Assembly (NCBI GenBank): GCA_963793865.1
Contig: CAWCBP010000001.1
Location: forward strand, 463,457 to 527,456
From: an uncultured delta proteobacterium
GTDB lineage: Bacteria > Desulfobacterota > WTBG01
Reading direction: 5' to 3'
DNA: 64,000 bases
Under the pieces are notes generated by a model, which saw only the letters and a list, made by a program, of their open reading frames with translations, searched no databases and had not been told where the DNA came from. Every line of letters begins with the position of its first letter. Position 1 is the first letter of the stretch. This document shows positions 1,390 through 62,101 of the stretch, one piece after another. Position numbers and translations under genes: made by a program.

Positions 1390-2752
1390 ATGATGCAGGA
1401 CGACAGGGGCCGGTCCGGTTCGGGCGGTACGAGAAGGGATTTTATTAAAATGTTCGGAGCTGCCGCGGCAGGAAGCGTGGCCGGCCTCCTGCTGCCGAGA
1501 GCGGCGGGGGCAGAGGATTCAACAGCAATCATTGAAGAACCTCCTTTTGCAGGATCCCGGTGATGAGCTGTTTTGGGCGCGGGTGCGCAGGCAATTTGTG
1601 ATCAAGCCCGGGTTGACCTACATGAATACCGGCACCGAAGGCTCCATACCCCGCTTTGTACTGTATCGCATGCAGAACTATTTCCGTGAGTTTGCCGAGA
1701 ACCCCTGGGATGCCATTATAGGAAGCAAGGTTTTCGGTCCGGACATGAAGGATACGCGCATCAGGATGGCCGGTTTTGTGGGTGCAGACGAAGGTGAAAT
1801 CCTGCTTACCCACAACACCACCGAAGGCATGTCGTTCACTGCCAATGGCCTGGAGTTGCAGGAAGGAGATGAGGTGCTGACAACCCTGCATGAGCACTCT
1901 GCGGGACTGGTCTGCTGGGAGATTCTCCGGGAGCGGCGAAAGGTGACCCTGACCCAGATTGAACTTCCCACCCCGGCGGCGGACAAGGATGAAATCGTCG
2001 ATGCCTTCGCCCGGGCAATTACGCCACGCACCCGGGTGATGAGCTTCTGCCATGTCAACTATACCACCGGGCTGCGCATGCCGGTGAAGGAATTGTGCCA
2101 GCTGGCCCGGGATAACGGCATCATCTCGGTGGTTGACGGGGCTCATGCCATAGGTATGCTCAATCTGAATCTGCACGACCTGGGATGTGACTTTTATGCC
2201 ACCTCTCCCCATAAGTGGCTCAATGCCCCTCCCGGAACAGGCGTGCTGTATATACGGAATGGCATGCTCGAGCAGCTCTGGCCCACGGTCACCGAAGTCT
2301 CGCCGCATGCCACCAGCATCAGCGTGCTGCAGGGCAGAGGCCAGCAGTGCACACCGGCATTCGCCTGTCTCAATGACCTCGCTGACTTTCAGGAGTACAC
2401 GATCGGTAAGGATCGTATCCAGAGCCGTATACTGGCATTAAGCTCCTATTTAAAGGAACAAATTAAGGAGGCTTGGAATGCCGATAGCCTTTTTTCACCC
2501 ACCGATGAAACGCTCTCATCGGGGATCGTATCCTTTAATCCCTTTGAGGATCATTTTGATATTGCAAAAGCTAAAATTTACATCCAGTTAAAGGAGAAAT
2601 ACAAGATCGTTATACGGCGGGTTGATTTTAAAAACCGGCTTGCCGACAGCAAGAAAACCCAGGCGATGCGGGTTTCAACGCATATCTTTAACAGCTACCG
2701 GGATATAGATAAACTGATCAGCTCGCTGCAGGTACTCATGGCCGAGATGTAG
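1390..2752 (+). CDS. Tat-signal class V PLP-dependent aminotransferase (cysteine desulfurase / isopenicillin-N epimerase-like), interrupted by an apparent +1 frameshift near 1532-1563
   Basis: Frame 1 (1390-1563) encodes a twin-arginine signal (TRRDFIKMFGAAAAGSVAGLL...AGA). Frame 2 (1532-2752) encodes an aminotransferase class V body (ELFWARVRRQFVIKPGLTYMNTGTEG...HKWLNAPPGTG). Removing the t at 1561 joins the two reading frames. Confidence 0.65.
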
Positions 2753-2979
2753 GATAACCGGCAGAGGCACATTTATGTGCGAATTATTCGCGGCTGAAGC
2801 CGCTCCTAACGGTTATAGGGAAGTGCGTGATGGAGGGCCATGCTCTGTCATGGCCGCATAAATATAGGAAGCGACGGAGCTCGTCCCTCCATCAAATTTG
2901 GTAAACAGTCATGGGGGTAGCCGCAAGCTTTAGCTTGCGATTTTGGACGCAACGGAGTGCGTGCCTCCAAGGCAGGTTG

Positions 2980-3813
2980 CTACGGACGCTGCAGTAATTC
3001 CAAGAGCTGTGTATGAACGTGTCCGTTTGAAAACAGGTAATCGCCCCGCTCAGGCTTCCAGGGATTGCCGCTGAAGTCGCTTACCTTTCCGCCGGCCTCC
3101 TCGACCAGGAGAACGCCGGCGGCCACGTCCCAGGGCTCGATGGCGGTGGTGAAATACGCCTCCCCCCGGCCTGAGGCCACCCACGCCGTTTCCAGTCCGG
3201 CTGAACCGAGCTTGCGGATGTCGGTGACATGGGGATAAACGCTGTGCAGGAGACTCCCCGTCCTTTCCCGGTCTTTGGATCCCCCTTCGCAATAGATGAT
3301 ATAGTTTCGATTGAGATCCCCGATGGTTGAAACCTCAAGCTTCACGCCGTTGAGATAAGCTCCCTTGTTCCTTTCCGCCAGGTAAAGCTCGTTGAGGGCG
3401 GGGGCATGTATAACTCCCAGGGTGAGTTTACCCCGGTGCATGAGCGCAATGCAGACCGAAAAAAAAGGATTGTGATTGGAGAAATTGCCGGTCCCGTCCA
3501 GCGAATCAACGATCCAGAGCCATTCATCACCGGCTTGATGATAGCCGCTTTCCTCAGTCAAAAGGCTGTGCCGGGGATAGGCTTTGCTGATTTCTGCAGT
3601 AATGAGACCATCGACCAGTTTATCGTAGCTGCTGGCCGCCTCTTTTGCGGTATTCCTCAAAAAAATAGAAGCGTGATCACGACGAAAACCTTCCAGCAGG
3701 ATATCCCCCGCCTTCCGCGCCACCTGCACCGTAAAGTCCCGCAACCCTTCAGCCATGTATCGCTCCCTATTGGTCATCATGTGTACGCCATCGCCATTTA
3801 TTAACCTGTTCAT
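2980..3813 (-). CDS. Inositol monophosphatase family protein (SuhB/IMPase-like)
   Basis: WIVDSLDGTGNF and EPWDVAAG motifs. Alternative start near 3780. Confidence 0.8.
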   Translation of the reverse strand: MNRLINGDGVHMMTNRERYMAEGLRDFTVQVARKAGDILLEGFRRDHASIFLRNTAKEAASSYDKLVDGLITAEISKAYPRHSLLTEESGYHQAGDEWLWIVDSLDGTGNFSNHNPFFSVCIALMHRGKLTLGVIHAPALNELYLAERNKGAYLNGVKLEVSTIGDLNRNYIIYCEGGSKDRERTGSLLHSVYPHVTDIRKLGSAGLETAWVASGRGEAYFTTAIEPWDVAAGVLLVEEAGGKVSDFSGNPWKPERGDYLFSNGHVHTQLLELLQRP

Positions 3814-7396: not shown

Positions 7397-8056
7397 ATGG
7401 ATGCACTTGCTGCCATTAATGATCGTTCAAGCATTCGGTGCTTTACCGACCAGCCTGTGGGGCGGGAGACCATTGAGCAGTTGCTGGATTGCGCGCGCAA
7501 GGCGCCGTCCGCCTCCAACCAGCAACCCTGGAATTTTGTGGTGGTGAGCGGGCACAGCAGGGACACGTTGGCCGGGGCCCTGCTTGCGGCACAGAAAAAC
7601 CGGGGCAAACATTATGATCCATCCCGGAGCAGGTCCCTGCCTGATGCCTACGTGGAGAGAAGCAGGAAGCTCATCAAGAGCTTACGGTCACATCTCGAGG
7701 CGATCAGCCTGCAGGCTGTGCCGTTCCTGGAGGAGGGGAGCTGCTCGTTTTACGGGGCGCCTGTTCTCATCCTGGTGACCATGGACAAGGCGCATATACC
7801 GTCTCAATTGATAGATATCGGATGCGCGGTGCAAAATCTCTGCCTTGCCGCACACGCCCGGGGACTGGGTACCTGCATTATTGCACTCATACTCATGTTC
7901 GGAGATGTGATACGGGAACAGCTTTCCCTGGGGGAAGAGGTGGAGGCGGTGGTCGGCATCGCCCTCGGGTACCCGGATCGCGGGTCAGCGATCAACCGGT
8001 TCCGGGCCCCGAAAGAAGAGCTGAGTTCCGTGACGCGGTGGATAGGCTTCGATTAG
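7397..8056 (+). CDS. Nitroreductase family protein (NAD(P)H-flavin oxidoreductase)
   Basis: N-terminal SIRCFTDQPV...SASNQQPWNFVVV typical of the nitroreductase fold. Confidence 0.8.
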   Translation: MDALAAINDRSSIRCFTDQPVGRETIEQLLDCARKAPSASNQQPWNFVVVSGHSRDTLAGALLAAQKNRGKHYDPSRSRSLPDAYVERSRKLIKSLRSHLEAISLQAVPFLEEGSCSFYGAPVLILVTMDKAHIPSQLIDIGCAVQNLCLAAHARGLGTCIIALILMFGDVIREQLSLGEEVEAVVGIALGYPDRGSAINRFRAPKEELSSVTRWIGFD

Positions 8057-8187
8057 GGGATGCCCGCGCCCGGATTGGGGCTTGCAGCATCGTGCAACCG
8101 CATGCCATGCCGCGGGTAATGCAATATCGCCGGAGAAGCTGCCGGCTTGATAAACAAAGGGATCTAACCTGATGAGAGGAGGAGGTA

Positions 8188-18365: not shown

Positions 18366-20016
18366 TTATCCCGCGCTGCGGGATGCGGCGGCGATAAGCG
18401 CCTGCGCCTCCTCCTGGATGAGCCGCAGATGGTCTTCACCCTTGAAGCTTTCCGCGTACATCTTGTACACATCTTCAGTGCCGGACGGCCGTGCCGCGAA
18501 CCAGCCGTTTTCGGTGATTACCTTAAGCCCGCCGATGGAAGCGCCGTTGCCGGGGGCTTCGGTCAGGACGGCAGTGATCTTTTCCCCGGCCATTTCAGAA
18601 GCGGTGATGTGCCGGGGTGAAAGATGCTGCAGTGCCGCCTTAAGCTCGGGGGTTGCCGGCGCGTCGATCCGTTCATACACCGGGTTGCCGAAACGCCCGG
18701 TAAGCTCTGCATACAGTTCGCCGGGGTCGCGGCCGGTTACGGCGGTGATTTCCGCGGCCAGCAAATCCATGATGAAGCCGTCCTTATCGGTGGTCCAGAC
18801 GGTGCCGTCCCTGCGGACAAAGGCCGCGCCGGAACTTTCTTCCCCGCCGAACGCGCATGATCCGTCAAGCAGGCCGCCGACAAACCACTTGAACCCCACG
18901 GGGACCTCACTCAATTTTCTCCGCAGCGCGCGGGCAACCCTGTCGATCATGGAGCTGCTCACCAGGGTTTTCCCGATTGCGGCATCCTCCCGCCATCCCG
19001 GCCGGTTCCGGAAGAGATACCAGATCGCCGCCGAGAGGTAATGGTTGGGGTTCAGAAGCCCCCCGCTCCGGGTGACGATGCCGTGCCGGTCATAATCGGG
19101 ATCGTTGCCGAAGGCGATGTCATACTTGTCCCTGAGCCTGATGAGGCCGGCCATGGCAAAGGGGGACGAGCAATCCATCCTGATTTTTCCGTCCCTGTCC
19201 ACGGTCATGAAGCTGAAGGCAGGATCGGCAAACCCGTTAAACACATCGATGTTTAATTGGTAACGCTCGGCGATGGGCTCCCAGAATGCGATGCCGGACC
19301 CTCCCAGGGCGTCCGCACCTATCTTCAGACCCGGCGGACTGCACGGCATCGAGGTCGATACAATGCCTGAGATCATCCACATAAGGGGTAATGTAGTCAT
19401 ATGCGCGGGTTGTGTCCGCGCGCACCGCCTTCGCGCAGGGGATCCTGCGCACATGCTTATTGTTGCCGGCCAGCAGTTCATTGGCTTCTTTTTCAATCCA
19501 GCCGGTGGTGGCGGTATCGGCAGGGCCTCCGTGCGGAGGATTGTATTTGAAACCTCCGTCATCCGGTCCATTGTGAGAAGGGGTGATGACAATGCCGTCA
19601 GCCGGGTGCGGTTTATTGCCCCGGTTGTAGCCGAGAATGGCGTGCGAAATAACCGGGGTAGGGGTGTAGCCCGAATCCATGTGCACCATCACCTCGATGC
19701 CGTGGGCGGCAAGCACTTCCAGGGCGGTGGAATGGGCCGGCTCGGAGAGCGCATGCGTGTCCTTGCCCAGGAAAAGAGGGCCGGTGATGCGGTGAGCGAC
19801 GCGGTAACGGCAGATGGCCTCGGTGATGGCAAGGATGTGATCTTCGTTGAAGCTGCCTTTAAGCGAGGAGCCGCGGTGTCCGGAGGTGCCGAAGGCCACC
19901 AGCTGGCTTTTGACCTGCGGGTCCGGATGGCGGGTGTAGTATGCGCTCACCAATAGGGGGATATTGGTCAGCAGTGACCGGGGAACCTGTTTGCCTGCGA
20001 GGGGGTGAGGCTGCAT
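18366..20016 (-). CDS. pgm: Phosphoglucomutase (alpha-D-glucose phosphate-specific), split by an apparent single frameshift near 19330
   Basis: The upstream fragment carries GTSGHRG and [23 protein letters not shown]. The downstream fragment carries GGSGIAFWE...[12 protein letters not shown]...[23 protein letters not shown]. The two are colinear with E. coli Pgm and the frames switch exactly at the junction. Confidence 0.85.
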
Positions 20017-23791: not shown

Positions 23792-25634
23792 GTGAGGTGC
23801 GCATTGAACCGTTTCAATAAAAATATTGCCCTGTGGCTCGGCGTGGTGCTGGTTTTTGTTCTGCTGATCAATCTGTTCAGCCAGCCGAGAGTAAAGCGGG
23901 ATGATATTAACTTTTCCGAATTTCTGGATCTGGTGGCGAAAGGCGAGGTGAGTGAGGTTCTCATCCAGGGCAGCGACGTTGAGGGCACGCTCCTGAACAG
24001 CCGGCGCTTTAAGACCTACAACCCCGGCTATGCCAGGCTGGTTGAGGACCTGCGGGAAAAGGGGGTCATGATCACCGGTGAAGCGGAAAAGCAGTCCCCC
24101 TGGACCACCATCCTCATCAGCTGGTTTCCCATGATCATTATCATCGCCATCTGGATCTTTCTCATGCGGCAGATGCAGACGGGCGGCGGCAAGGCGATGT
24201 CTTTCGGCAAAAGCAGGGCCAAGCTGCTGACCGAACAGCAGCAGAAGGTGACCTTCGAGGATGTCGCCGGCATCGACGAGGCCAAGGAAGAGCTGGAGGA
24301 GATTATCGAGTTCCTCAAGGAACCCAAAAAGTTCACCCTGCTGGGGGGCCGGATTCCGAAGGGGGTGATTCTCATGGGCGCGCCGGGGACGGGCAAGACC
24401 CTCCTCGCGCGGGCCATTGCCGGGGAGGCGGGAGTGCCCTTCTTCAGCATCAGCGGATCCGACTTCGTGGAGATGTTTGTGGGCGTGGGTGCGTCGCGGG
24501 TGAGGGATCTTTTCATGCAGGGCAAAAAAAACGCCCCCTGCATCATATTTATTGACGAGATCGACGCCGTGGGAAGGCACCGCGGCGCCGGCCTCGGCGG
24601 CGGGCATGATGAGCGCGAGCAGACGCTGAATCAGCTCCTGGTGGAGATGGACGGGTTTGAATCCAATGAAGGGGTCATCCTGATTGCCGCCACCAACCGG
24701 CCGGATGTGCTTGATCCCGCCCTGCTGCGCCCGGGCAGGTTTGACCGCCGGGTGGTGGTTCCCATTCCCGACATCAAGGGCCGCAGAGGGAATTTTAAAG
24801 GTGCATTCCAAGAACAAGCCGCTGGCGGACGATGTGGATCTGGAGACCATCGCCAAAAGCACGCCGGGCTTCTGCGGCGCCGACTTGTCCAACCTGGTGA
24901 ATGAAGCCGCCTTAATGGCGGCCCGCAAAGAGAAGAAGAAGATTGACCGCTCGGACTTTGAGGTTGCCAAGGACAAGGTGGTGATGGGTGTTGAGCGCAA
25001 GAGCATGATCATCAGCGCCCAGGACAAGGAAAATACGGCATACCATGAAATAGGGCACGTGCTGGTGGCCAAGCTCATACCCGAAACCGATCCCATACAC
25101 AAGGTGACCATCATTCCCCGCGGCTGGTCGCTTGGCCAGACGCACTATCTGCCCGATGAGAAGTACACCAAGCAGAGAAAATTCCTGCTGGCGGAGATCG
25201 CGGTGCTGCTGGGGGGCAGGGCGGCGGAGGAGATTGTCAATAAGGACGTGAGCACCGGCGCGGGCAATGACCTGGAGCGCGCAACCGACCTGGCGCGCAA
25301 GATGGTCTGCGACTGGGGCATGAGCGACAAGCTGGGGCCGCTTACCTTCGGCAAAAAGGAGGAGCAGATCTTTCTGGGCCGGGAGATTGCCCAGCACCGC
25401 GACTACAGCGAGGATACGGCGGAGCGGATCGATGAAGAGGTGAGAAGAATTATTATGGAGAATTATGAGCGGGCCAAGCAGCTGCTGGTTGAGAACACGG
25501 GCCTGCTCCACCGTCTGGCCAGGGAGCTGCTGGAGAAGGAAGTGCTGGATAACAGCGAGATCGAAAAAATAATGAAGGACTATAATCCCCTCGATAACCA
25601 CACGTTTACAACGGTGCGGGAAATGGGCGGATAG
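23792..25634 (+). CDS. ftsH: ATP-dependent zinc metalloprotease FtsH, with an apparent 1-nt deletion frameshift at about 24785
   Basis: Walker [12 protein letters not shown] and HEIGH zinc site. Reading switches from ...PIPDIKGR to [21 protein letters not shown] within GGCCGCAGAGGG. Likely start TTG 23804 or GTG 23792. Confidence 0.85.
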
Positions 25635-25791: not shown

Positions 25792-26683
25792 GTGGGTTCC
25801 TTAAACCCTTCCACTCATGGCAATTCCGCGGCGGAATGCCGGCTGCGGCTGGAGTGCGGGAGCTACCGCCTCGACTTCAGCAGGCGAACCCATATCATGG
25901 GCATCCTCAATGTGACGCCCGATTCGTTTTCCGACGGCGGCAGATTTTTTGACCAGGGGCGTGCCGTGGATCACGCCCTGCGCATGGCGGACGAGGGTGC
26001 CGACGTCATCGACATCGGCGGGGAGTCCACCCGGCCGGGCGCCCGGCCTGTTTCCCTTGAGGAGGAGCGGCGAAGGGTGCTGCCGGTGATTGAGCGGCTT
26101 GCCGCCCGGATCCGGATACCCCTTTCGGTCGACACGGCCAAGGCGGCACTTGCGGCTGATGCCGTCAACGCAGGCGCCGTCATCATCAACGATGTCAGCG
26201 CGCTTCGCTCGGATCCGGAAATGGCGCCGCTGGCCGCCCAATGCGGTGCTGCGGTGGTGCTGATGCACATGCGGGGGACGCCGCAGGACCATGCAGCGGC
26301 AGGTCCTGTACCATGATGTGATCGCTGAGATCCATGCCTTCTTCCGGGAGCGCATCAGCGCCGCCCTGGCAGCAGGGATCGGTGAGCGGAGGATCATGAT
26401 CGACCCCGGCATCGGTTTCGGCAAATCGGTGCCCGAGGGGAATCTCTCCCTGCTGAAGCACCTCGGCTGCTTTACAGCGCTCGAAAAGCCCCTTCTGGTC
26501 GGCCCCTCGCGGAAGGCCTTCATCGGTGAGGTGCTCGGCCTTGGCCCGGGCGAGAGGGAGGAGGGGACCGCCGCTGCGGTTGCCATCGCCATCGCCAACG
26601 GCGCCGCCATGGTGAGGGTGCATGATGTCAAGGTGATGAAGCGGGTGGCCGCCATGGCCGACGCCATCATGGCCGCCGGCTGA
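25792..26683 (+). CDS. folP: Dihydropteroate synthase, with an apparent 1-nt insertion frameshift at about 26287
   Basis: GILNVTPDSFSDGG...LMHMRGTPQ then (shifted) TMQRQVLYHDVIAEI...DPGIGFGK...GPSRKAFIG. The start codon is uncertain. Confidence 0.8.
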
Positions 26684-44140: not shown

Positions 44141-45060
44141 TTATTGCCGACTCTTGAAAAAATCAACCGTGTGCCTGAGCCCTTCGGTGAGTGGCATGGT
44201 CGGCGCCCAGCCCAGAACGGCACGGGCCTTTTGTAGGAGAGGACGCTGCGCAGCTGCTCGCCGGGCATGGCCGGTCCGTGCACCTCGGGGGTGCCGGGAG
44301 CCACTAATGATCTGATCTCATTGAAAATGGTATTGATGGATGTCTCTACGCCGGTGCCGATATTTATTTCACCGGTCACCTCATGCTGTAATGCCAGCAG
44401 ATTGGCCCGGGCAACATCACCCACGTAGACAAAATCCCTGGTCTGATTGCCGTCTCCATTAATGACCGGCTGATCGCCCTTCAGCATGCGCTGACAGAAT
44501 ATGGCCACAACCCCGGCCTCGCCGAAGGGATCCTGCCGCGGGCCATAGACATTGGCATAGCGGAGTACCGTGTAGGGAAGACGGTGGGTGGAAAAATAAA
44601 AGAAAAGGTATTTCTCCACGCTCAGCTTGGCGATGGCGTAAGGGCTGAGCGGACGGGTGGGGTGATTTTCATCCGCGGGGAAATAGTCCTGTTCCCCGTA
44701 CAGCGCCCCGCCGGTGGATGAAAAAATAATCTTTTTAACCTGATAGTCCTTACAGTGCTCAAGCAGCATGAGGGAACCTTTAATATTTATTTCCATATCG
44801 CGCAGGGGATCTTTGACTGAATCTCTCACCGAGATCTGGGCCGCGTGGTGGATCACCACTTCGGGTTTTTCTTCCCTGATGATGCCGACAAGCGCTTGGT
44901 CGAGGATGCTTACATGGTAGAAGGCGGCACGGGGATTTATATTTTCCCTCTTGCCGTTAGAAAGGTCGTCGACGATGACTACGGCATGACCGTTTTCTAT
45001 CAGCAGATCTGCAACGTGGGAGGCGATAAAGCCCGCCCCGCCGGTAATGACAATTTTCAT
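44141..45060 (-). CDS. NAD-dependent epimerase/dehydratase (UDP-glucose 4-epimerase-like), with an apparent homopolymer frameshift near 44230
   Basis: MKIVITGGAGFIASH Rossmann motif, YxxxK (YAIAK). The canonical C-terminus ...ARAVLGWAPTMPLTEGLRHTVDFF is present only after a frame switch at the run CAAAAGG. Confidence 0.8.
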
Positions 45061-46464: not shown

Positions 46465-47615
46465 TAATATTTGAAAAAATATTCATGTCCCTGCGTGAGC
46501 ATCTCAGCCCCTTGCCGGGTCAATTCCCGTAAGGCCTTCATCATGTCCTCCCGGTCCGGGGGACATCCGCCGACCCGGGGTTCAGTCTCCGCGCTGTTTG
46601 ACGCGCACTCTCCGATGGTGATCATCGCTCCGCCTGCGGTGACCGGGGTTGTACCCAGCGCAACGGTAAGGGGATGTTTGAACACCCGGTTTTCCTGAGC
46701 CAGCTGGCGGAGGGCTGAAAACAGGGGAATGATGCATCCGCTGCAGGCTGTATCCTCCCCCCGGATTGTAAGATCGGGGAATGTCTTCCCGAGCCACTCT
46801 GAGGGAAGCTCATAATGCATCTTCAGTCCCTTGATATCATCCCCTCTGATATCGATCTCCGCAAGACGCATCTCTCCCAATCCCGCGTGGAATGCCAGCC
46901 GGACCGTTTTTATCTCCCCGGGGCTTAAACCCATGAGCGCGGTGCTGACGCTGTCCGCGGCCACGATATCTCTTCCTGCCAGGACAAAGGATGCCTTCTG
47001 CCCGGGCTGGGTGGTAAAGTCCACCACGTTCATGAACGGCCTGATGATGGTGTTGAGGGCGACGACCGCGCCGTCGAGGCCAACGCGATGAAACAGCGGC
47101 TTGTCCTCCCGCTTCACAAATCCTTTGAGGTTCTTCATGGCGATGGATACGGTGGTCAGGTAGTGCGTTTTTGGGACGGGAAGGTTAATGATCCGGTCAT
47201 GCAGGAAGGCATGCTCTGAAATTTTGAATTCGGCAGGCAGGTCGGGGGAAGCGTCCTTGAAGGTACGGTAGGGGTGTTCATCAAAAAGCACCCAGGAGGC
47301 GCTGCTGCGTTCGCAGACCTCCGAGATGCCTGTTGTGGTAAAGCATTCCCTGAGCGCATGGTCAGCGGTAAAGTAGCTTGGCCCTTCTCCCACCGTTACC
47401 GCACGCGCCCCCCGCCGATGGCAGCAGTGTATCACCGCCTCTACCAGGAGAGGGCTGGTAGTCTGCCCGGTGGTGTAGGCAAGGGGCTCAAACAGGTTGG
47501 GCTTGAGCAGAATTGACTCACCGCTCAGGCTGTCAGGAAGGCCTGCACGACTCAGCAGCAGCTCCACGGCGGCAGACAGGGACTGATTTATTTTTTCTAT
47601 GCAGACAAGGGACAT
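46464..47615 (-). CDS. DUF362 domain-containing protein
   Basis: ILLKPNLFEP...GQTTSPLLVEAV... matches the DUF362 N-terminal pattern. About 380 aa. Confidence 0.5.
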   Translation of the reverse strand: MSLVCIEKINQSLSAAVELLLSRAGLPDSLSGESILLKPNLFEPLAYTTGQTTSPLLVEAVIHCCHRRGARAVTVGEGPSYFTADHALRECFTTTGISEVCERSSASWVLFDEHPYRTFKDASPDLPAEFKISEHAFLHDRIINLPVPKTHYLTTVSIAMKNLKGFVKREDKPLFHRVGLDGAVVALNTIIRPFMNVVDFTTQPGQKASFVLAGRDIVAADSVSTALMGLSPGEIKTVRLAFHAGLGEMRLAEIDIRGDDIKGLKMHYELPSEWLGKTFPDLTIRGEDTACSGCIIPLFSALRQLAQENRVFKHPLTVALGTTPVTAGGAMITIGECASNSAETEPRVGGCPPDREDMMKALRELTRQGAEMLTQGHEYFFKY

Positions 47616-51093: not shown

Positions 51094-52804
51094 ATGAAAC
51101 AGGATAAACCGCTTGACCTGAACGCGATACAAAAGAAGGGGCTCAGCATGCTGGCGCCGGCGCGTGCCCGGATTACCGTCGGCATGGCAACCTGCGGATT
51201 GGCCAAGGGCGCGGGGAAGATTTTTGAAGCCCTGAAGTATGAGATCAAGAAGCAGAAAGCCAAGGCTGACCTGGTGGTGGTGGGGTGCAACGGCCTTTGC
51301 TATGCCGAACCCATTGTTGAAGTGATCTGCCCGGGAAAGCCGCGCATCACCTATGGCCGGGTGAGCGTGGAACGGGTTCCTGACCTGGTGGCCTCGGTGG
51401 CAAAGGGAGGCGTGGTCAAGGATCTGGCCCTGATGAGGATGGACCGGTTAACCGCGGAAGGCGGTGCATCGATCAAATATGCCGGGGCGAAGGTCCCCAA
51501 GGACGCGGCCGCGCTCAAAGAATGCGGGAAGCTTGATTTTTTCAAAAAGCAGATGAAGCTCATCAGCAAAAACGCCGGAACGGTCAGCCCGGAGCAGGTT
51601 GAGGAATACTGCGCGCTGGGCGGCTACCAGGCGCTGCTGAAAGCCGTTACCTCCATGAGCCCGGATGAGGTCATCAGGGAAGTAACCGTGTCCAAGCTCC
51701 GCGGCCGGGGCGGCGCCGGATTCCCGGCGGGCATTAAGCTGCAGGCATGCCGTCAGGCGGCCGGGGATGCCAAGTACATTGTCGCCAACGGCAGCGAAGG
51801 CGATCCCGAAATCGGCATGCACCGGAGCTTTCTGGAATCGGATCCCCACGCGGTCATAGAGGGGATGGCCATCGCCGGCTACGCGGTGGGTGCATCGGAA
51901 GGCTACATTTATTTGAATGACCGGTACCAGGTGGCCCACGAGCGGCTCACCCGGGCCATCGAGGGGGCGGAAGCCCTGGGACTTATCGGGAGCAATATAG
52001 CGGGTTCGGGATTTTCTTTCTCCCTGCGGGTGAAGCGGGGAGGAGGCGCGTACGTGTGCGGCGAGGAAACGGCGCTGCTCAACGCGCTGGAAGGCTCGTT
52101 CGGCGAGCCGAGACCGCGGCCCCCGTATCCCGCGGAGAGCGGGCTTTTCAACAAGCCCACCGTGGTCAACAATCTCGAGACCCTGGCAACCATTCCCGCC
52201 ATTATCGCCGGGGGCGGGGAAGCGGTACGCGGGCATCGGCACGCCGGGCAGCACCGGCACGAAAATCGTGGCCCTGTCCGGGCATGTGGCCAGGAGCTGC
52301 TGGGTGGAGGTCCCGCTGGGCATGGAGATCGGGGAGATCATTGAAACCTTCGGCGGCGGCGCCGCCAACGGAAAGAAGATAAAAGGTTTCCAGGCGGGAG
52401 GCCCGTCAGGCGGCATTCTGCCGGCCAAACTGCTGAAGATCAAGCTTGACTACGATCGCCTGGCCAAGGAAGGAAGCCTGCTGGGTTCGGGCGGGCTGGT
52501 GGTCATGGATGAGGATACTGACCTGCTGGAGATGGCAAAATTTTTCACCGACTTTTTTGCCGACGAGTCCTGTGGAAAGTGCAGCATCTGCAGGGAAGGC
52601 ACCAAGCGGCTCCAGCAGATCATCACTGATGTGATGGAAGGGCAGGGAACAAGCGAGCACATCGCCCTGGTCAAGCGCCTGGCATCAGCACTGTCGGATA
52701 CCGGCGCCTGCGCCCTGGGCAAAACCGCAGCGGTGCCCTTTATATCGGTGCTCAACCATTTCCCGCAGGTGATCGAAGGCAAACTGCTCAGGAAGAAAGC
52801 GTAA
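51094..52804 (+). CDS. NuoF-like NAD(H)-binding FMN/[4Fe-4S] flavoprotein subunit with N-terminal thioredoxin-like domain, carrying an apparent frameshift at about 52225
   Basis: GRGGAGFPAGIKL, then after the frame switch GTKIVALSGHVARSCWVEVPLG and the 4Fe-4S motif ESCGKCSICREG. Confidence 0.8.
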
Positions 52805-53783: not shown

Positions 53784-53832
53784 AGAGTTGCCCCAATTCT
53801 GAATGACTATGTAAGCATCCAAGGAGGAAGTA

Positions 53833-55131: not shown

Positions 55132-55154
55132 GACGCGGGCGTTTGCTGAATCAA

Positions 55155-55190
55155 ACAAAAGCCGGGGATTTGCTTCCCCGGCTTTTGTTC
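55155..55190. terminator. Bidirectional rho-independent terminator (AAAAGCCGGGGA-loop-TCCCCGGCTTTT) between convergent genes
   Basis: A 12-bp stem flanked by an A-run and a T-run, between the FAD oxidoreductase (+) and the outer-membrane protein gene (-). Confidence 0.7.
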
Positions 55191-55206
55191 TTTCTTATGC
55201 CGTCCT

Positions 55207-56388: not shown

Positions 56389-56694
56389 ATCTATGGTCTG
56401 TTGCTATAATCAAACAGAAAGAAGAATTCGATTTACGGAAAGTTGTATTTATCGGTTGACAGAGGCTCAGGCGGATGATAGTTAATTTCGAACCATAGCG
56501 CAGCCCTTATGAATAAAGAAAGCGGATGTAAGATATGGTAGCAGAATCCGAATGGGCAGTCAAATTTTTATGGAACTATTGTAGTGAATGCCGTTGCATT
56601 TGAGGGGCCGGCCCCGGTCCGTTGCGTAACGGCAGCGTGAGGAAATGAAGGCGAGGCCGGACAGGAATACCCACCGTGCGAGAGGAGTTTGGTT

Positions 56695-57462
56695 ATGGCA
56701 AAGGTAGCATGGAATGAGATGACTGCGTTCGCAAAAGTTATTGTGGAGGATTACAAGCTGTTTGAAGGACTGGAGCTGGTGCCGCTTGAGACCTACCAGG
56801 GCATGGACACCAGGCCGGCCTGGGAGTTTAAAACCCCCATGGCCACCGGCTTCTACAAGCCGTACCTCATCAAGGGAAGCGACCGGATCGAGAAGATCAC
56901 CATCGGGGAGCTGCATTACATGGGACGGGCCAAGTACTGCGCCCTGAACATGACCGCGAGCAACGATTACGACCTGCCCATCTATGCCTGCGAGTTTGAC
57001 GAGACGGCGCCGCGGGTGGGCGTGACCATGGATTTAATGCCCACGGTGGACATCGCCCGGCACGAGGAGTACCTGCAAAAATACTACCGGGAGATAGCGC
57101 CGCTGTGGCGGAAGTACCGAACCATACCCGGATTTACCCTTGAAGGCCGCTGTCTGGTGCAGAGAAGGTACGCGCCCTGGCCCTGGGCGCGCGAGTCGCT
57201 CTCTCCCTTCAGCCTTGACGGGCGGGTGGAGGAGAAGGAGGACCGGGTGAAGCTGATGGAGGCGGTGGTGGCCTATGCCCGGGTGTGGCTTAACCTGCTG
57301 AAGAAGGCGGAGCCCATCCGGGATGAGGGGTACCGGCAGGAGATGCTGCGCAGAAAAAGCAAAACCCAGAAATATTACCGCGATCTTGACCCGGGCGGAG
57401 AGGTGATGAAAAAGATTTTCGGCGCGGAAAAAAGCCACCTCTTCGTGAGCCTTGTCTTTTAA
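56695..57462 (+). CDS. Hypothetical protein, paralogue A; weak resemblance to ferredoxin-dependent bilin reductase (FDBR/HY2) family
   Basis: RBS GAGAGGAG. YDLPIYACEFDE...VGVTMDLMP resembles the FDBR motif LP.FG.D.V....AI.DLSP. Paralogous to the next gene. Confidence 0.35.
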   Translation: MAKVAWNEMTAFAKVIVEDYKLFEGLELVPLETYQGMDTRPAWEFKTPMATGFYKPYLIKGSDRIEKITIGELHYMGRAKYCALNMTASNDYDLPIYACEFDETAPRVGVTMDLMPTVDIARHEEYLQKYYREIAPLWRKYRTIPGFTLEGRCLVQRRYAPWPWARESLSPFSLDGRVEEKEDRVKLMEAVVAYARVWLNLLKKAEPIRDEGYRQEMLRRKSKTQKYYRDLDPGGEVMKKIFGAEKSHLFVSLVF

Positions 57463-57475
57463 AGGAGGTAGAGAA

Positions 57476-58204
57476 ATGGATGCAGGCGTAAAATGGACAC
57501 CCTATCTGGAAAAAATGAAGGGATTGATTGATTCGCTGCAGCCCACCGCGCTTCAGGAGTGGAAGGGGCAGAATCTTGCGCCCGCCCTGGAGTTTGCCAG
57601 GGGCCAAGCGCGGGGAGGGTTCAGCGCATACCGCGCTGACAAGCTGGAAAAAATAGGCATCGGCTCATTTGTCCATGCCGGCAACAGGCACTTTGCCTTC
57701 TGCAGCATCATGCCCGGGGAAGCCTATGACCTGCCCCTGTTTCTCTCGCGTCTCGATGAGGGGCCGGAGGAGGTCATTTTCCTGGTTGATATCATCCCCG
57801 CGGTGGACAGCCTGGTGGATGAGGAATACCGCAAGAAGTATATCGAGTCGGTGCAGCCCCTCTGGGACCGGTTTGCCGCCCTGCCCGGCATCTGTCCCGA
57901 GGAAAGCGATGTCATCCGCTCACTCGCCTCCATCATTTACACCGCGGCCCGGGTTCCCATCGAGAAGGAGGGGATGCGCCTGGCGGCCCTTGCCCCGCAC
58001 ACTGAATATCTCAAGAGCTACCTCGCGTTTCTTCCCGAGGCGGTGCCGGTTACCGATGAGGCGAAGAAAAAGGAGCTGGCGGCAAAACGCGCGGCGCTGC
58101 GCGCAACCCTGCGTGCCCATTTTTTCAAGGAAATGCTGCCGGGTCCGGCACGGGAAGAACTGGGTGATGGCATGATCGAACTGCTTAATGCTGTCTATTT
58201 TTAG
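57476..58204 (+). CDS. Hypothetical protein, paralogue B of the preceding gene (FDBR-like?)
   Basis: RBS AAAGGAGG. YDLPLFLSRLDE...IFLVDIIPAVD...PLWDRF parallels paralogue A (YDLPIY..EFDE...TMDLMP...PLWRKY). Confidence 0.35.
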   Translation: MDAGVKWTPYLEKMKGLIDSLQPTALQEWKGQNLAPALEFARGQARGGFSAYRADKLEKIGIGSFVHAGNRHFAFCSIMPGEAYDLPLFLSRLDEGPEEVIFLVDIIPAVDSLVDEEYRKKYIESVQPLWDRFAALPGICPEESDVIRSLASIIYTAARVPIEKEGMRLAALAPHTEYLKSYLAFLPEAVPVTDEAKKKELAAKRAALRATLRAHFFKEMLPGPAREELGDGMIELLNAVYF

Positions 58205-58217
58205 GGAGGGATGAGAC

Positions 58218-58628
58218 ATGTCGGTTATGGAAATGCTTGCGGCAGGAGCCGATTTTACCAACGCGGATGAAACGGCGCAGGGGATGATGGCTGATTTCAG
58301 CGACCACAAGGTGGGCATGAAGCTTGACGCGGACGAGTTCACCCAGGTGGTAAAAGACGGCAAGCTCTATCTGGAGCAGGGGATCCGCGAGGACTGCCAC
58401 GTGGTGCTGAAGCTGAAAACGGCCGATCTCTGCAGCGCCATCGACAACACCTTCGATCTCATGGAAATCAAGGACAAGGGGGAGCTGTTGAAGGGCGATA
58501 TGACCGATCCCAACGTTCCCGTCCACCTCATGGCCACCTTTCCCTTTTTCGATGCCATGGTCCGGCTGTATGAATCCGATCCCCGCTTTAAAAAAATGGT
58601 TGATGAGGTTAAGTCTACTTTGGGATGA
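58218..58628 (+). CDS. Small protein, possibly SCP2 sterol-carrier-like lipid-binding fold
   Basis: 136 aa with the pattern ...HVVLKLKTADLCSAIDNTFDLMEIKDKGELLKGDM.... A weak call. Confidence 0.3.
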   Translation: MSVMEMLAAGADFTNADETAQGMMADFSDHKVGMKLDADEFTQVVKDGKLYLEQGIREDCHVVLKLKTADLCSAIDNTFDLMEIKDKGELLKGDMTDPNVPVHLMATFPFFDAMVRLYESDPRFKKMVDEVKSTLG

Positions 58629-58640
58629 GGTGCCCTGCAT

Positions 58641-58847
58641 ATGGTGAAACATCTGGTCGATCTGGAAAAGTGCCGCGGCTGCGGGCAGTGCCTTGAGCAG
58701 TGCGGACTGGAACTGTGGGTTCTGGTGGAAACACCGGACGGAAAGAAAAAAGCCAAGGCAATCGAAGAGGCGGGCATGATCTGCCACTGCTGTCTTTCCT
58801 GCCAGGACGCCTGCCCGGAAAAAGCGATCACCATTCTTGACGAGTAA
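58641..58847 (+). CDS. 2x[4Fe-4S] ferredoxin (68 aa)
   Basis: CRGCGQCLEQC and CHCCLSCQDACP motifs. Confidence 0.65.
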   Translation: MVKHLVDLEKCRGCGQCLEQCGLELWVLVETPDGKKKAKAIEEAGMICHCCLSCQDACPEKAITILDE

Positions 58848-58924
58848 CGGGCCGGTGGCCGCTCATGAGCGTGTGAGCATCGGCGCAACCTGATTGTAAT
58901 GATGAATGATGAGAAGGAGTAAAG

Positions 58925-60273
58925 ATGCCCAGGGAATATGATCTGGTGGTGGTCGGCGCGGGGCCTGCCGGTTTGATGGCCGCCAAAACAGCAGCCGAAC
59001 ACGGGCTGAGCGTGGCCCTGATCGAGCGGAAAGAGCACATTACTGATATCAACCGTGCCTGCAGCATGATGGTGGTGACCCTGACCGGGAAATATCTGGA
59101 GGAGCGGGTACGCTTAAACAGCCGGGACAGGAAGCTTTGCTTCCCGGGATACGGTTTTACCGTCAACTATGACGGCCCCCACCGTGACTTTTACACCTGG
59201 GCCATATACTCCCACCGGGGCAACAAAATTCAGCTCGGCAACTATGAAGAGAACGAGCGCAAGGGCGAGAGCGGCAGGGTGAGCGCGACGTACGATAAGG
59301 GGGCGCTGCTGCGCTGCCTCCTGGAGGAGGCCCGCGCCCTGAAGGTTGATGTCTACAACCCGTATAATGTAATCCGGACCGATCTGCAGGGAGGCAGGGT
59401 GACGGTTTTCACCCGCGAGGGAAGATCCTTCAGGGGCACCTTCGTCATCGCCGCCGACGGTCGCGCCTCCAGAATAGCCCACACCCTGGGCTGCAACCGG
59501 GATCGGAAGTATTTCGGCACTGCGGTGACCCTGGGGTATGAAATGGTGGGGGTAAAGCCGCCGGAAAAATTTGCCCTCTTCCAGATATTTCTCGACGAGA
59601 CACCTTCCAAGCGGGTGTGGATGACGCCGCGGACGACGAAGGACACCTACTTCGTCATGACCACCTCGCTCACCCCCGGCGCAGACCTCGCGGGCGCCTT
59701 TGAGCGGTTTTCGAAAAAGGGTTTTTTCGCGCTCCTGGTTCGAAAAGGCAGAGATAAAGCGCACCCTGACTTCCGCGGGCAACGCGCTCTCACACATAGT
59801 CGATCCCTACAAGGACCAGGTGCTGCTTGTCTCCGACGCGGTGTGGTGCCAGGAGGCGGAGATGACCGGGGCGGTCATCAGCGGCTGGAAGGCGGCCAGC
59901 TGCCGTCAGCTTCGCCCTGGCCGATGGAAAGATATCGCGGGAAGGGGTTTCATCCTACCTCCGCTGGTGGAAAGAAGAGGTGCTGGATAAATACGATTAC
60001 CGGAGCATGATGCGCAATGCCGTGCTTCCCCTCCGGCTCACCCCTGACGAGATTGACTTCGTGCTGAGCCTGGTTAAAAAATCACTGCCCAGCATCCTTG
60101 ATCCTTATGAGACCCCCAAGCTGGTCGGCGGCGCCCTGGCGGAGATAATGCCGGCCGTTGCCAAACAGCGGCCCGCCATTCATCAGAAGCTTGCAGGGAT
60201 GCGCAATGTGCCGCTGGCCGCCGTTTTTGACGGATGCATCAGGGCGGGCTTCCCCATGCAGGCCCGCGGCTAG
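58925..60273 (+). CDS. FAD-dependent oxidoreductase (geranylgeranyl-reductase-like), paralogue of 53833-55131, with two apparent frameshifts (about 59722-59727 and about 59895-59905)
   Basis: YDLVVVGAGPAGLMAAKTAAEHGLSVALIERK. The C-terminal half is recovered in three frames colinear with paralogue 1 (AFERFSKK / SRSWFEKAEIKR...PYKDQVLLVSDA...GWKAA / SYLRWWKEEV...). The first shift is at a T6 run. Confidence 0.7.
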
Positions 60274-60369
60274 CCGCCCCACTGCGGCGATAATCCGGGA
60301 CGAGCAGTCAGCGGGGTGCAGCACAATGCCTGCCACACCCCGCCTTTCATTTTCCCCGCCCTTTCCACA

Positions 60370-62101
60370 ATGATGCGCAATGAGCATGACTCCTCCGCTG
60401 AAAAGAAAAAAATAATTCCGGCACGGCTGCCGGAGGGAATGTACCAGGCATTGGAAGCATGTCGTTGGCAAGGAGTGGATTTCCCGCGACCGGGCGGTTC
60501 TGGAAACCTACAGCAAGCTCTCGCTCGACGCGGAAGGGTTTTTAAAGAAGCACGCCCGGAACGGCTCAAGCATTCCCGCCTGCGTGGTGCTGCCGGGCGG
60601 CACCGATGAAGTGCGGTCCGTGGTGAGGATCGCCCGGCGATACCGGGTTCCCGTCATACCCTTCACCAACGGCCAGATGATGAGCGCCCCCACCTTTCCC
60701 GTTCCCATGCTCTGCATTCACCTGAGCCGGATGAACCGGGTGCTGGCCATCGATGAGCAGCTCATGACGGCCACGCTTGAACCCTATGCGGACTACGGGC
60801 AGCTTCTGGCCGAGGCTGCAAAAGTGGGGCTCTGGAATGGAGGGACGCCGCTGGCAACCACCCTGTGCAAGCTTTCGTCCCAGGTGGCCTTTGCGGGCAT
60901 CTGGCAGACCAGCAAGAAATACGGCCTGCTGGACAGAAACATCGTGGACATAAAGCTGGTGCTGCCCACGGGTGAAATCATGAGCACCGGTTCCCCCGCG
61001 GTTGCGGGCGTTGACCGCGTATGGGAGAGCGGACCGGGCCCTGACCTCACCGGGGTGGTGCGCGCCAGCGCCGGGACCACCGGCATCATTACCGAGGTGA
61101 CCGTCAAGCTGCACACCTGGGTCGGCGGGGAGCTGATGCCGGAACCGCGGGCGGGAAGGCCCTGCATTCCCTGCTATGCCGATGAGCGCTACGACCATGC
61201 CCCCGCGCCGCCCCGGCACCGCATCCACTGGATAGAGTTTCCCGACTGCGAATCCGAAATCAGGGCATACCGGGCCATCGCCCACGCGGGCATCGGCATC
61301 GGGCTCAATGCCTCGGGGGTGTATTCCTCCTATTACTGCTCCCCAACCCAGAAAATGACCGAGGAGCGGGCGACGGGCAATTTTTTCCCCGCCTTCAACC
61401 TCTATGTCATCTGCGCGGGCATCGTATCAGAGGGCCAGCTGGCCTATGAGGAAAAGGTGCTCAGGGAGATAGCGGAAGAGCAGGGCGGCAGGTTTCTCTC
61501 CCGCGACCATAAGCCGGAGGTGCTGCAGGCGCTCGCCCCGTGGAACCTGGACTGCATCAGGAATGTCTGCGGCTATCGCATGAACCGGCGCATGTACGCG
61601 GGCGGGAGCCTTCCCGCGGGTCCGCCCGAGGTGGCCCTCTATCACAGCCGGCTCTGGCGTGAAGTGCTCGAGCGCTTCGGTGAGACGCACGTCACCGACC
61701 GCGGAGGGGCGGAAACGACCCCCTTTGTGTACGGCATAGAGCCGGCGGGGCGCTACACCCTCTCGGAGACGGATATCTACCCGGATCCGATGGACCCTCA
61801 TTCGCTGGAACAATGCGTCGCCATTACCATGTACAGCGCGGTTAAAAATGGCGCCGAGCGGCACTGCGCGCCCTTCGGCTTCGGCGGTCCGGCTGAACCA
61901 TTGGTCACCTTTTTCCCCGAGCAGGGTCCCAATGTCCATCTCCTGCTGAGAAAATTAAGAAAGGTCTTTGACCCACAGGGCATCTGCAGCCCCGGCAGGC
62001 AGGTGCTTACCGAGGAAGAGCTCAAGGAATATCCGGCGGAGGCGGTTGCCAGACTGAATGAACTGCGGAAGTTTTTTAACATGGGCACGATTGAAAGGTA
62101 A
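60370..62101 (+). CDS. FAD-linked oxidase (FAD-binding PCMH/GlcD-type fold), paralogue 1 of 3; N-terminus carries an apparent frameshift at about 60458
   Basis: The N-terminus MMRNEHDSSAEKKKIIPARLPEGMYQALE continues, after a shift, as DVVGKEWISRDRAVLETYS...CVVLPGGTDEVRSVVRIA. This is colinear with paralogue 3 (KAKVIPNRVSREVFQALQDVVGPEWISEDRAV). The start codon is uncertain (60316 or 60370). Confidence 0.6.

What the first reader, a model, noticed from the sequence alone, without database searches (positions are those of the whole stretch)
1390..60460. Pervasive single-nucleotide frameshifts in conserved genes: the sequence is likely an uncorrected draft with homopolymer/GC-run indel errors
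At least ten places need a frame switch to restore a conserved protein. They are the Tat-aminotransferase (about 1561), pgm (about 19330), ftsH (about 24785, in GGCCGCAGAGGG), folP (about 26287, in CAGGACC), the epimerase (about 44230, A4 versus A5 run), the NuoF-like gene (about 52225), FAD reductase 2 (T6 run 59722-59727 and about 59900) and FAD oxidase 1 (about 60458). ftsH and folP are normally essential, and the switch points are homopolymers or GC-rich runs. That pattern is the signature of 454, IonTorrent or uncorrected long-read indels, about 1 per 6-7 kb here, rather than pseudogenisation. Any truncated-gene or novel small-ORF call in this window must be read with this in mind.
Basis: seen in the sequence. 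Interest (0 to 1): 0.6.

Follow-up and report, generated by a model that had tools for sequence, protein, structure and literature searches.

The report
Assembly indel errors, not pseudogenes
Eleven single-base insertions or deletions break eight otherwise well-conserved genes in this window, and they are almost certainly consensus errors of a long-read metagenome assembly, so this is a data-quality warning and not biology.

Summary
I found two more (1381 and 60394-60397), giving 11 single-base indels in 8 of about 55 genes. Removing or adding one base at each site restores an ORF with no stops and the same length as intact orthologues. dN/dS is as low downstream of each shift as upstream.

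The frameshifts are private to this assembly. Short-read relatives at 80-99% nucleotide identity are in frame at every site they cover. These include a 99.35%-identical contig at 1381 and a 95.7%-identical contig whose only two gaps over 3.8 kb are the two FAD-reductase frameshifts. Two other long-read-style assemblies of sister strains carry their own frameshifts at different positions.

The window's proteins lie on a 1.27-Mb contig, so it is a long-read assembly.

The stated signature is not: only 2 of 11 indels lie in runs of 4 or more bases, 111 runs of 6 or more show no frameshift, and 9 of 11 are insertions. This argues against 454 or IonTorrent. Three insertions look like merges of two co-occurring haplotypes, which hints at collapsed strain diversity.

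The finding is ordinary and of low interest.

The parts
1381..1381 (+). +1 insertion (ATA[G]AGG) in codon 5 of the Tat-signal class-V aminotransferase (gene 1368-2752).
   Evidence: Private to the window against L079, L080 and L081. It is also absent from the Logan contig L084 (99.35% identical), which reads in frame as MTMQENQRMQDDRGRSGSGGTRRDF. With both aminotransferase repairs the protein is 460 aa, the same as P0121 and P0122.
1526..1526 (+). +1 insertion (CAG[C]AAT) between the Tat signal and the Aminotran_5 domain.
   Evidence: The homologues read AEDSPESLKNLL, and the window switches frame within ACAGCAA at 1522-1528. Three window-private substitutions lie within 5 nt upstream.
19330..19333 (-). 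+1 insertion in CCCG/GCCGGG of pgm (gene 18366-20016, minus strand).
   Evidence: tblastn switches frame at residue 229. An MSA with L001 and L002 shows the extra base. The repaired protein is 549 aa, the same as the orthologues, and dN/dS is 0.19 upstream and 0.14 downstream.
24786..24786 (+). +1 insertion (CGCA[G]AGGG) in ftsH (gene 23804-25634).
   Evidence: Absent from L024 (94.4% identical), L001, L002 and L025. The repaired protein is 609 aa, the same as P0001-P0005 at 96-98% identity. dN/dS is 0.04 upstream and 0.11 downstream.
26285..26285 (+). +1 insertion (CCGC[A]GGACC) in folP (gene 25792-26683).
   Evidence: The 98%-identical sister-strain contig L082 reads CCGC-GGACC, in frame as TPRTMQ. 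L001, L002 and L025 also lack the base. The repaired protein is 296 aa, the same as L001.
44229..44232 (-). -1 deletion in an A run (A5 to A4 on the coding strand) of the NAD-dependent epimerase (gene 44141-45060, minus strand).
   Evidence: L003 and L005 have one more base. tblastn switches frame at residue 283. Repair restores the conserved C-terminus, and dN/dS downstream is 0.10-0.16.
52216..52219 (+). +1 insertion in a G run (GGC GGG[G] AAG) of the NuoF-like gene (51094-52804). A conserved TGG reads CGG a few bases downstream.
   Evidence: Private against L003, L004, L005, L028 and L030. The repaired protein is 569 aa, the same as the orthologues. dN/dS is 0.09 upstream and 0.02 downstream.
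59731..59733 (+). +1 insertion in GCGCTCC of FAD reductase 2 (gene 58925-60273). It is not in the T6 run.
   Evidence: One of only two gaps over 3788 nt against L026, which is 95.7% identical. The window sequence is one deletion away from each of two observed haplotypes: L031 (GCC TCC) and L026/L027/L003 (GCG CCC).
59898..59901 (+). +1 insertion in CCAGCTGCC of FAD reductase 2.
   Evidence: Private against 7 relatives. With both repairs the protein is 448 aa, the same as P0331, L003 and L004, and P0331 reads KAASAVSF like the repaired version.
60394..60397 (+). -1 deletion (CCTCCCGC to CCTCCGC) in codon 4 of FAD oxidase 1 (gene 60386-62101).
   Evidence: All of L003, L004, L027, L028 and L031 have the extra C. 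The short-read contig L004 defines the start as ATG AAT CCT CCC.
60455..60458 (+). +1 insertion in GGAAGCATG of FAD oxidase 1.
   Evidence: Private against 5 relatives. The window sequence is one deletion away from L031 (GAA GAT) and from L027 (GAG CAT). With both FAD oxidase 1 repairs the protein is 571 aa, the same as the orthologues.
46513..46513 (-). Ambiguous -1 in the last four codons of the DUF362 gene (46464-47648). Not counted.
   Evidence: Seen only against L003, which is itself a Nanopore MAG and carries its own -2 frameshift in this gene at window position 47477. The short-read contig L005 agrees with the window at 47477.

Best explanation
The window is a piece of a 1.27-Mb contig from a long-read metagenome assembly of an uncultured Thermodesulfobacteriota bacterium. 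The assembly is most likely Nanopore with Flye and Medaka, and was never polished with accurate reads. Consensus calling left about one wrong single-base indel per 5-6 kb. Each indel that falls in a gene splits it into two or three ORFs. The genes themselves are intact and under normal purifying selection in the living organism.

Shown: the indels exist, they are private to this assembly, a one-base repair restores full-length orthologue-sized proteins, selection is not relaxed downstream, and other long-read-style assemblies of sister strains have different private frameshifts.

Inferred: the sequencing platform, and that reads would contradict the consensus at these sites.
For: (1) All 8 genes are restored by one-base edits to ORFs with no stops and exactly the orthologue length: 460, 549, 609, 296, 569, 448 and 571 aa, plus the epimerase C-terminus.

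(2) dN/dS downstream of each shift is 0.02-0.23, the same range as upstream.

(3) Every relative is in frame at every site it covers. L026 is 95.7% identical, and its only 2 gaps in 3788 nt are the two FAD-reductase frameshifts. L024, L027 and L031 are 93-94% identical. L082 is 98% identical at folP. The Logan contig L084 is 99.35% identical at 1381.

(4) The reciprocal pattern holds. L082 (ENA ERZ25039527 contig_89694, Flye-style name) has 7 frameshifting indels in aspartate kinase, LeuA, HHH and PdxJ where the window is intact. The Nanopore MAG L003 has its own -2 in DUF362. P0448 is another truncated FAD reductase, shifted at a different codon. Fourteen short-read loci show 1 frame switch in about 107 gene matches.

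(5) There are no nonsense mutations or larger lesions in any of about 55 genes, only plus or minus 1 indels.

(6) Exact window proteins are recorded on a single 1,270,997-bp contig from NCBI and ENA. The nearest GTDB genome is a Microflora Danica Nanopore-only MAG. [quoted passage not shown]

(7) Long-read consensus indels that cause frameshifts are well documented (PMC9262707; proovframe preprint abstract).

(8) ftsH and folP are normally indispensable (established knowledge).
Against: No reads could be inspected, and the window's own record and platform could not be retrieved.

The error profile is not the textbook Nanopore one. It is insertion-biased (9 of 11, P=0.065), and only 2 of 11 indels lie in runs of 4 or more bases.

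None of the repaired proteins exists verbatim in the 15-billion-protein collection, so no identical-strain intact copy was found.

The closest accurate contigs cover only 1 of the 11 sites directly, namely 1381.
Confidence: 0.9

Rival explanations
1. This is a more specific version of the best explanation. Many of the indels arise because reads from two or more co-existing strains were collapsed into one consensus. Where the haplotypes differ by adjacent substitutions, the pile-up or partial-order alignment opens gap columns, and the consensus keeps bases from both haplotypes, which adds one base.
For: At 3 of 9 insertion sites the window is exactly one deletion away from each of two different haplotypes that are both observed in independent contigs. 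At 1381 they are L079 (CATAAGG) and L084 (CAAGAGA). At 59731-59733 they are L031 (GCCTCC) and L026 (GCGCCC). At 60455-60458 they are L031 (GAAGAT) and L027 (GAGCAT). Simulated random insertions scored against the same relatives give 0.6 such sites (P=0.017). For the four sites with at least two close relatives, 3 of 4 were observed against 0.32 expected (P=0.0015). The insertion bias fits this model. Related strains at 92-99% identity do co-occur in public metagenomes.
Against: A simpler test found no enrichment of indels at positions that are polymorphic among relatives: 4 of 11 observed against about 5 expected. Six insertion sites show no union pattern, although most of them lack close relatives. 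The union test was devised after the pattern had been seen. The two deletions and the G-run insertion look like ordinary run-length errors.
Confidence: 0.35
2. One reading: errors from a homopolymer-limited chemistry (454, IonTorrent or early Nanopore R9), in which run lengths are miscounted.
For: Two sites fit: A5 to A4 at 44229-44232 and G3 to G4 at 52216-52219. For comparison, L066 shows what such a profile looks like, with about 17 single-base losses in short runs within 2.7 kb.
Against: Seven of 11 indels lie in no run of three or more bases. Two of 11 lie in runs of 4 or more, which make up 8.1% of bases (P=0.22). All other 111 runs of 6 or more nt cause no frameshift, including an A7 at 60407-60413 that matches the relatives. 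A 1.27-Mb metagenomic contig is not achievable with 454 or IonTorrent.
Confidence: 0.05
3. The frameshifts are real mutations: very recent pseudogenisation, or a defective or dying sub-population.
For: The bases are in the deposited sequence, and no reads were available to contradict them. A few of the lesions could be tolerated: 1381, 60394 and 46513 sit within the first or last few codons, where alternative starts exist.
Against: ftsH and folP are hit. There is no relaxation of selection downstream. There are no nonsense mutations or deletions. No relative shares any lesion, including strains at 98-99.4% identity. Other long-read-style assemblies show equally dense but different frameshifts, while short-read ones show almost none. 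Eleven independent, secondary-lesion-free frameshifts in 64 kb would imply about 700 in a 4-Mb genome.
Confidence: 0.04
4. Programmed ribosomal frameshifting or transcriptional slippage restores the frames.
For: None beyond the existence of the frame switches.
Against: Orthologues in all relatives are encoded in a single frame at the same positions. The sites share no slippery heptamer and no prfB-like stop-plus-SD context, and they have different sequences. Nine would need +1 and two would need -1 events.
Confidence: 0.005

Closest known systems
Frameshift-causing consensus indels in long-read (Nanopore or PacBio CLR) assemblies and MAGs, as described in PMC9262707 and the proovframe preprint. 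[quoted passage not shown]
   Same: The lesions are single-base indels at roughly 1 per 5-6 kb. They split conserved genes, are private to one assembly, sit on a megabase-scale contig, and can be corrected by reference-guided one-base edits. The nearest genome is itself such a MAG.
   Different: The published emphasis is on homopolymer deletions. Here most errors are insertions outside homopolymers, and three look like merges of two haplotypes.
454 or IonTorrent homopolymer-length errors
   Same: Single-base indels that break reading frames.
   Different: The location test fails: only 2 of 11 indels are in runs of 4 or more bases, and long runs are unaffected. The contig length is also incompatible with these platforms.
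Pseudogene-rich genomes undergoing reductive evolution, for example Mycobacterium leprae or recent insect symbionts (own knowledge)
   Same: Many frameshifted genes per unit length.
   Different: Those genomes also show nonsense mutations, deletions, relaxed dN/dS and lesions shared among strains. They keep core genes such as ftsH intact. None of that pattern is seen here.
Programmed frameshifting (prfB +1, dnaX -1; own knowledge)
   Same: Two frames are needed for one protein.
   Different: Programmed sites are conserved in orthologues and have defined slippery or stimulatory motifs. These sites are neither conserved nor similar to each other.

Membership tests
Long-read assembly consensus indel artefact | Lesions are single-base indels, and a one-base edit restores a full-length, orthologue-sized ORF | tested here: met
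   All 8 genes are restored with 0 internal stops. Lengths are 460, 549, 609, 296, 569, 448 and 571 aa, equal to the orthologues.
Long-read assembly consensus indel artefact | Lesions are private to the assembly and absent from independent assemblies of close relatives | tested here: met
   All 11 are absent from every relative that covers them. These include contigs at 95.7% (L026), 98% (L082) and 99.35% identity (L084).
Long-read assembly consensus indel artefact | Other long-read assemblies of the lineage carry different private frameshifts, and short-read ones carry almost none | tested here: met
   L082 has 7 indels where the window is intact, L003 has 1, and P0448 is shifted at a different codon. 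Short-read loci show 1 frame switch in about 107 gene matches.
Long-read assembly consensus indel artefact | The sequence comes from a long-read assembly | tested here: inconclusive
   Exact window proteins map to one 1,270,997-bp contig from NCBI and ENA, which implies long reads. The record and platform could not be retrieved.
Long-read assembly consensus indel artefact | Accurate reads disagree with the consensus at the sites | not testable with these tools
   There is no read access. The only proxies are Logan contigs of run ERR10755943, which cover 1 site (1381) and are in frame there.
Homopolymer-limited chemistry errors (454, IonTorrent, Nanopore R9) | Indels are concentrated in homopolymer runs, and long runs are affected first | tested here: not met
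   2 of 11 indels are in runs of 4 or more bases against an 8.1% base fraction (P=0.22). 111 runs of 6 or more bases cause no frameshift.
Genuine pseudogenes or genome decay | Relaxed selection (dN/dS approaching 1) downstream of the lesion, with secondary lesions | tested here: not met
   Downstream dN/dS is 0.02-0.23, similar to upstream, with no extra stops.
Genuine pseudogenes or genome decay | A mixed lesion spectrum (nonsense, deletions, IS elements), with essential genes spared | tested here: not met
   Only plus or minus 1 indels occur, and ftsH and folP are among the hits.
Programmed frameshifting or slippage | The frameshift is conserved in orthologues and a slippery motif is present | tested here: not met
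   Orthologues are encoded in a single frame at every site, and the sites share no motif.
Strain-collapse ('both alleles kept') consensus artefact | The inserted site equals a gapped merge of two haplotypes that really occur | tested here: inconclusive
   3 of 9 insertion sites fit against 0.6 expected (P=0.017). The test was post hoc, and a polymorphism co-localisation test was negative.

The most novel reading that the evidence does not exclude
The frameshifts are real. The assembled population would then be a lineage, or a sub-population, carrying hundreds of very recent inactivating single-base insertions, including in ftsH and folP. This might reflect a hypermutating or non-viable population, or one that survives by complementation within a consortium. 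A milder novel reading is methodological: a distinct, recognisable long-read consensus failure mode at adjacent-SNP haplotype differences, which inserts one base and could be detected and corrected from the sequence alone.
Probability: 0.04. Interest if true: 0.6.

Novelty: not a real feature. Interest (0 to 1): 0.1.

Why it matters
The value is practical. About 15% of genes in this window are mis-split, so any claim of truncated genes, novel small ORFs, missing essential functions or pseudogene load from this contig is unsafe until it is polished. By extension the same applies to the rest of the genome it comes from.

The corrected coordinates let downstream readers repair eight proteins. These include several members of a conserved NuoEF-like, FAD-enzyme and bilin-reductase-like cluster that might otherwise be misannotated.

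The result also shows that masking homopolymers would not catch these errors, because most are non-homopolymer insertions.

Tried and rejected
(1) I looked for the window's own record. Exact look-ups of YbbR, LeuA, TsaE and the 130-aa FolP fragment found no gene position. Cluster look-ups did show that the proteins sit on a 1,270,997-bp NCBI/ENA contig, but gave no accession.

(2) I looked for verbatim intact copies. Ten repaired protein variants were not in the collection. This is uninformative, not negative.

(3) I tested whether indels sit at polymorphic sites. They are not enriched: 4 of 11 observed against about 5 expected. I therefore dropped this as a general claim and kept only the stricter union test.

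(4) I tested whether window-private substitutions cluster around the indels. Over all genes this is not significant (P=0.07-0.4). In genes with close relatives it is enriched (5-7 observed against about 1 expected, P about 0.001-0.005), but site 1526 drives the result and the restriction was post hoc. I treat it as weak support for local consensus errors.

(5) I tested homopolymer enrichment and rejected it.

(6) A possible GCAG/CAGC methylation-motif association was noticed by eye at four sites. I did not pursue it, because the motif is too short to be meaningful with 11 sites.

(7) I checked suspect ORF pairs elsewhere. These were the AAA_2 and DnaJ pair at 37235-40010, the nitroreductase and HU region at 7397-8466, 13925-15113 and 45460-46385. 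Pfam shows complete domains or non-coding-looking ORFs, so no further frameshifts were called. Regions 2.8-15 kb and 36.9-44 kb have no close relative, so silent indels there cannot be excluded.
Full report
**What is in the sequence**

The window has 54-65% GC and about 55 genes.
- pgm: PGM_PMM_I lies in 19237-20016(-), and domains II-IV lie in 18366-19592(-).
- ftsH: FtsH_ext and AAA lie in 23792-24904, and AAA_lid_3 and Peptidase_M41 lie in 24684-25634.
- folP: Pterin_bind positions 1-132 and 134-244 are in two ORFs.
- NuoF-like: Complex1_51K is in one frame, and SLBB and NADH_4Fe-4S are in another.

The epimerase ORF has a junk C-terminus. FAD reductase 2 and FAD oxidase 1 needed orthologues before they could be resolved.

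**Relatives**

A repaired FtsH finds intact 609-aa proteins at 96-98% identity. Their contigs and other scans gave the following syntenic loci:

| Locus | Source | Nucleotide identity to window |
|---|---|---|
| L001, L028 | GCA_016294905 | about 81-85% |
| L002, L004 | SPAdes contigs of one MAG | about 80-85% |
| L005 | SPAdes contig of another MAG | about 82-88% |
| L025, L030 | JGI | about 79-88% |
| L003 | Microflora Danica Nanopore MAG MFD02979.bin.2.54 | 92.8% over 17.3 kb |
| L024 | JGI | 94.4% |
| L026 | JGI | 95.7% |
| L027 | JGI | 93.8% |
| L031 | JGI | 93.1% |
| L079 | JGI | 87.7% |
| L080, L081 | JGI; ENA (k141-named contig) | about 93% |
| L082 | ENA ERZ25039527 contig_89694 | 95-98% |
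| L083, L084 | Logan contigs of run ERR10755943 | 99.84% and 99.35% |

The lineage is an uncultured Thermodesulfobacteriota ('delta proteobacterium') known only from MAGs.

**Site-by-site result**

Alignments were made.

| Position | Change | Context | Gene |
|---|---|---|---|
| 1381 | +1 | ATA[G]AGG | aminotransferase |
| 1526 | +1 | CAG[C]AAT | aminotransferase |
| 19330-19333 | +1 | — | pgm |
| 24786 | +1 | — | ftsH |
| 26285 | +1 | CGC[A]GG | folP |
| 52216-52219 | +1 | G run | NuoF-like |
| 59731-59733 | +1 | GCGCTCC | FAD reductase 2 |
| 59898-59901 | +1 | CCAGCTGCC | FAD reductase 2 |
| 60455-60458 | +1 | GGAAGCATG | FAD oxidase 1 |
| 44229-44232 | -1 | A5 to A4 | epimerase |
| 60394-60397 | -1 | CCC to CC | FAD oxidase 1 |

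Two positions need correcting:
- The aminotransferase indel is 35 nt upstream of 1561. Position 1561 is merely the stop codon of the first ORF. Homologues read AEDSPESLKNLL.
- The first FAD-reductase indel is not in the T6 run. The T6 run reflects a synonymous GGA to GGT change.

Two indels are new: 1381 and 60394-60397. A -1 at 46513, in the last codons of DUF362, is seen only against L003 and is left open.

**Are they biological?**

*Repair.* One-base repairs give ORFs without stops, with exactly the orthologue lengths of 460, 549, 609, 296, 569, 448 and 571 aa, and they restore the conserved epimerase C-terminus.

*Selection.* dN/dS downstream of each shift is 0.02-0.23, indistinguishable from upstream.

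*Other lesions.* No gene has a nonsense codon or a larger lesion.

*Privacy.* Every indel is private to the window:
- Against L026 the only two gaps in 3788 nt are the two FAD-reductase frameshifts.
- L082, at 98% identity, is in frame at folP.
- L084, at 99.35% identity and assembled from a different run, is in frame at 1381.

*Reciprocal pattern.* L082 has seven frameshifting indels in aspartate kinase, LeuA, the HHH protein and PdxJ, where the window and all other relatives are intact. Its indels have the same character as the window's, for example CGC[T]GC and CGC[A]TGA. L003 has its own -2 in DUF362, where the short-read contig L005 agrees with the window. P0448 is another truncated FAD reductase, shifted at a different codon. 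Across fourteen short-read loci, the same tblastn test finds one frame switch in about 107 gene matches.

Frameshifts therefore track the assembly and not the organism.

**Source**

Exact window proteins are recorded on a single contig of 1,270,997 bp with sources NCBI and ENA. A metagenomic contig of that size implies long reads. The accession could not be retrieved.

The nearest GTDB genome is a Microflora Danica long-read MAG. [quoted passage not shown] Frameshifts from consensus indels in such assemblies are a known problem (PMC9262707; proovframe abstract).

**Error signature**

- Only two indels lie in runs of 4 or more bases. Such runs hold 8.1% of bases, giving P=0.22.
- Two more touch runs of 3.
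- Seven lie in no run of three or more bases.
- The window has 382 runs of 5 or more bases and 111 of 6 or more, and none of the others produces a frameshift. An A7 at 60407-60413 matches the relatives.
- Nine of 11 indels are insertions (P=0.065).

For contrast, L066 shows a true run-length error profile, with about 17 single-base losses in short runs in 2.7 kb. This rules out 454 or IonTorrent and is atypical for older Nanopore chemistry.

**A possible sub-mechanism**

At 1381, 59731-59733 and 60455-60458 the window is exactly one deletion away from each of two different haplotypes, and both haplotypes exist in independent contigs. The pairs are L079 and L084, L031 and L026, and L031 and L027. 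It looks as if a consensus built from mixed strains kept a base from each.

Random insertions simulated in the same genes, scored against the same relatives, give 0.6 such sites where 3 were observed (P=0.017). For the four sites with at least two close relatives the observed count is 3 of 4 (P=0.0015).

The test was designed after I saw the pattern. A simpler co-localisation test with polymorphic columns was negative. I therefore hold this at about 35%.

Window-private substitutions are enriched near the indels in well-sampled genes: 5-7 observed against about 1 expected. Site 1526 drives this result.

**Verdict**

The interpretation 'draft-quality indel errors, not pseudogenes' is supported at about 0.9. 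The specific homopolymer or 454/IonTorrent attribution is not supported. Genuine pseudogenisation stays at a few percent until reads are inspected, and programmed frameshifting is excluded by the in-frame orthologues.

This is an artefact of a known kind. Its value is as a caution, and as a list of corrected coordinates for the eight genes.

Noticed in passing
window 49490-63861: A conserved redox gene cluster is shared with many uncultured Thermodesulfobacteriota MAGs. It holds a NuoE-like 2Fe-2S protein, a NuoF-like protein, a 2Fe-2S/4Fe-4S protein, an FAD reductase and two adjacent PF05996 ferredoxin-dependent-bilin-reductase-like proteins (56689-57462 and 57476-58204). It also holds a 136-aa protein, a geranylgeranyl-reductase-like FAD enzyme and two FAD_binding_4 oxidases. 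Bilin-reductase-family proteins next to a NuoEF-like module in a non-phototroph are unusual and may be worth a separate look.
   Followed up: partly
window 13585-13750 and 62099-62240: There are two intergenic elements of about 150 nt. Each is single-copy in the window but recurs at different intergenic positions in relatives. The first has inverted ends (AGCAGGCTGTTGAAAAACA...TGTTTTTGATCAGCCTGCT) and recurs at L024 3083-3239 and L082 9868-10029. The second occurs twice in L001. They look like small dispersed repeats or MITE-like elements of this lineage.
   Followed up: partly
L082 1-4598 (ENA ERZ25039527 contig_89694): The first 4.6 kb of this contig is a noisy reverse-complement copy (81-87% identity, dozens of indels) of the sequence that follows it (window 26282-30514). 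This is a fold-back chimera typical of long-read artefacts. Its gene calls there are fragments.
   Followed up: partly
L066 (JGI Ga0124853_1338589), window 59114-61788: This public contig lacks one base at about 17 positions, nearly all in short homopolymer runs, relative to the window and other relatives. It is itself an error-rich sequence with a genuine run-length error profile.
   Followed up: no
window about 52224: In the NuoF-like gene, a Trp codon (TGG) conserved in all aligned relatives reads CGG (Arg), 5-8 nt downstream of the inserted G. It is probably a substitution error linked to the indel.
   Followed up: no
window 21706-21810: A 174-aa gene of unknown function lies between UDP-glucose dehydrogenase and the LapA-domain gene in L001 and L002, and L025 carries a partial (155-aa) gene at the same position. 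The gene is absent from the window, where only about 100 nt separate the flanking genes.
   Followed up: no
window 48701-48774: This is a tRNA gene and the only Rfam match in the window. A 1-nt length difference from L003 lies just upstream, at 48697.
   Followed up: no
window 1312, 1361, 23722, 58914: These are single-base length differences from close relatives in intergenic DNA. At 1312 there is an extra C after a T8 run relative to the 99.35%-identical L084. At 23722 there is a G6 run against G5. They may be further consensus errors but cannot be told apart from natural variation.
   Followed up: partly
L002 about 14293 (PdxJ): This is the one frame switch seen in a short-read relative. 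PdxJ in this SPAdes MAG is called as 223 aa against 248 aa elsewhere.
   Followed up: no
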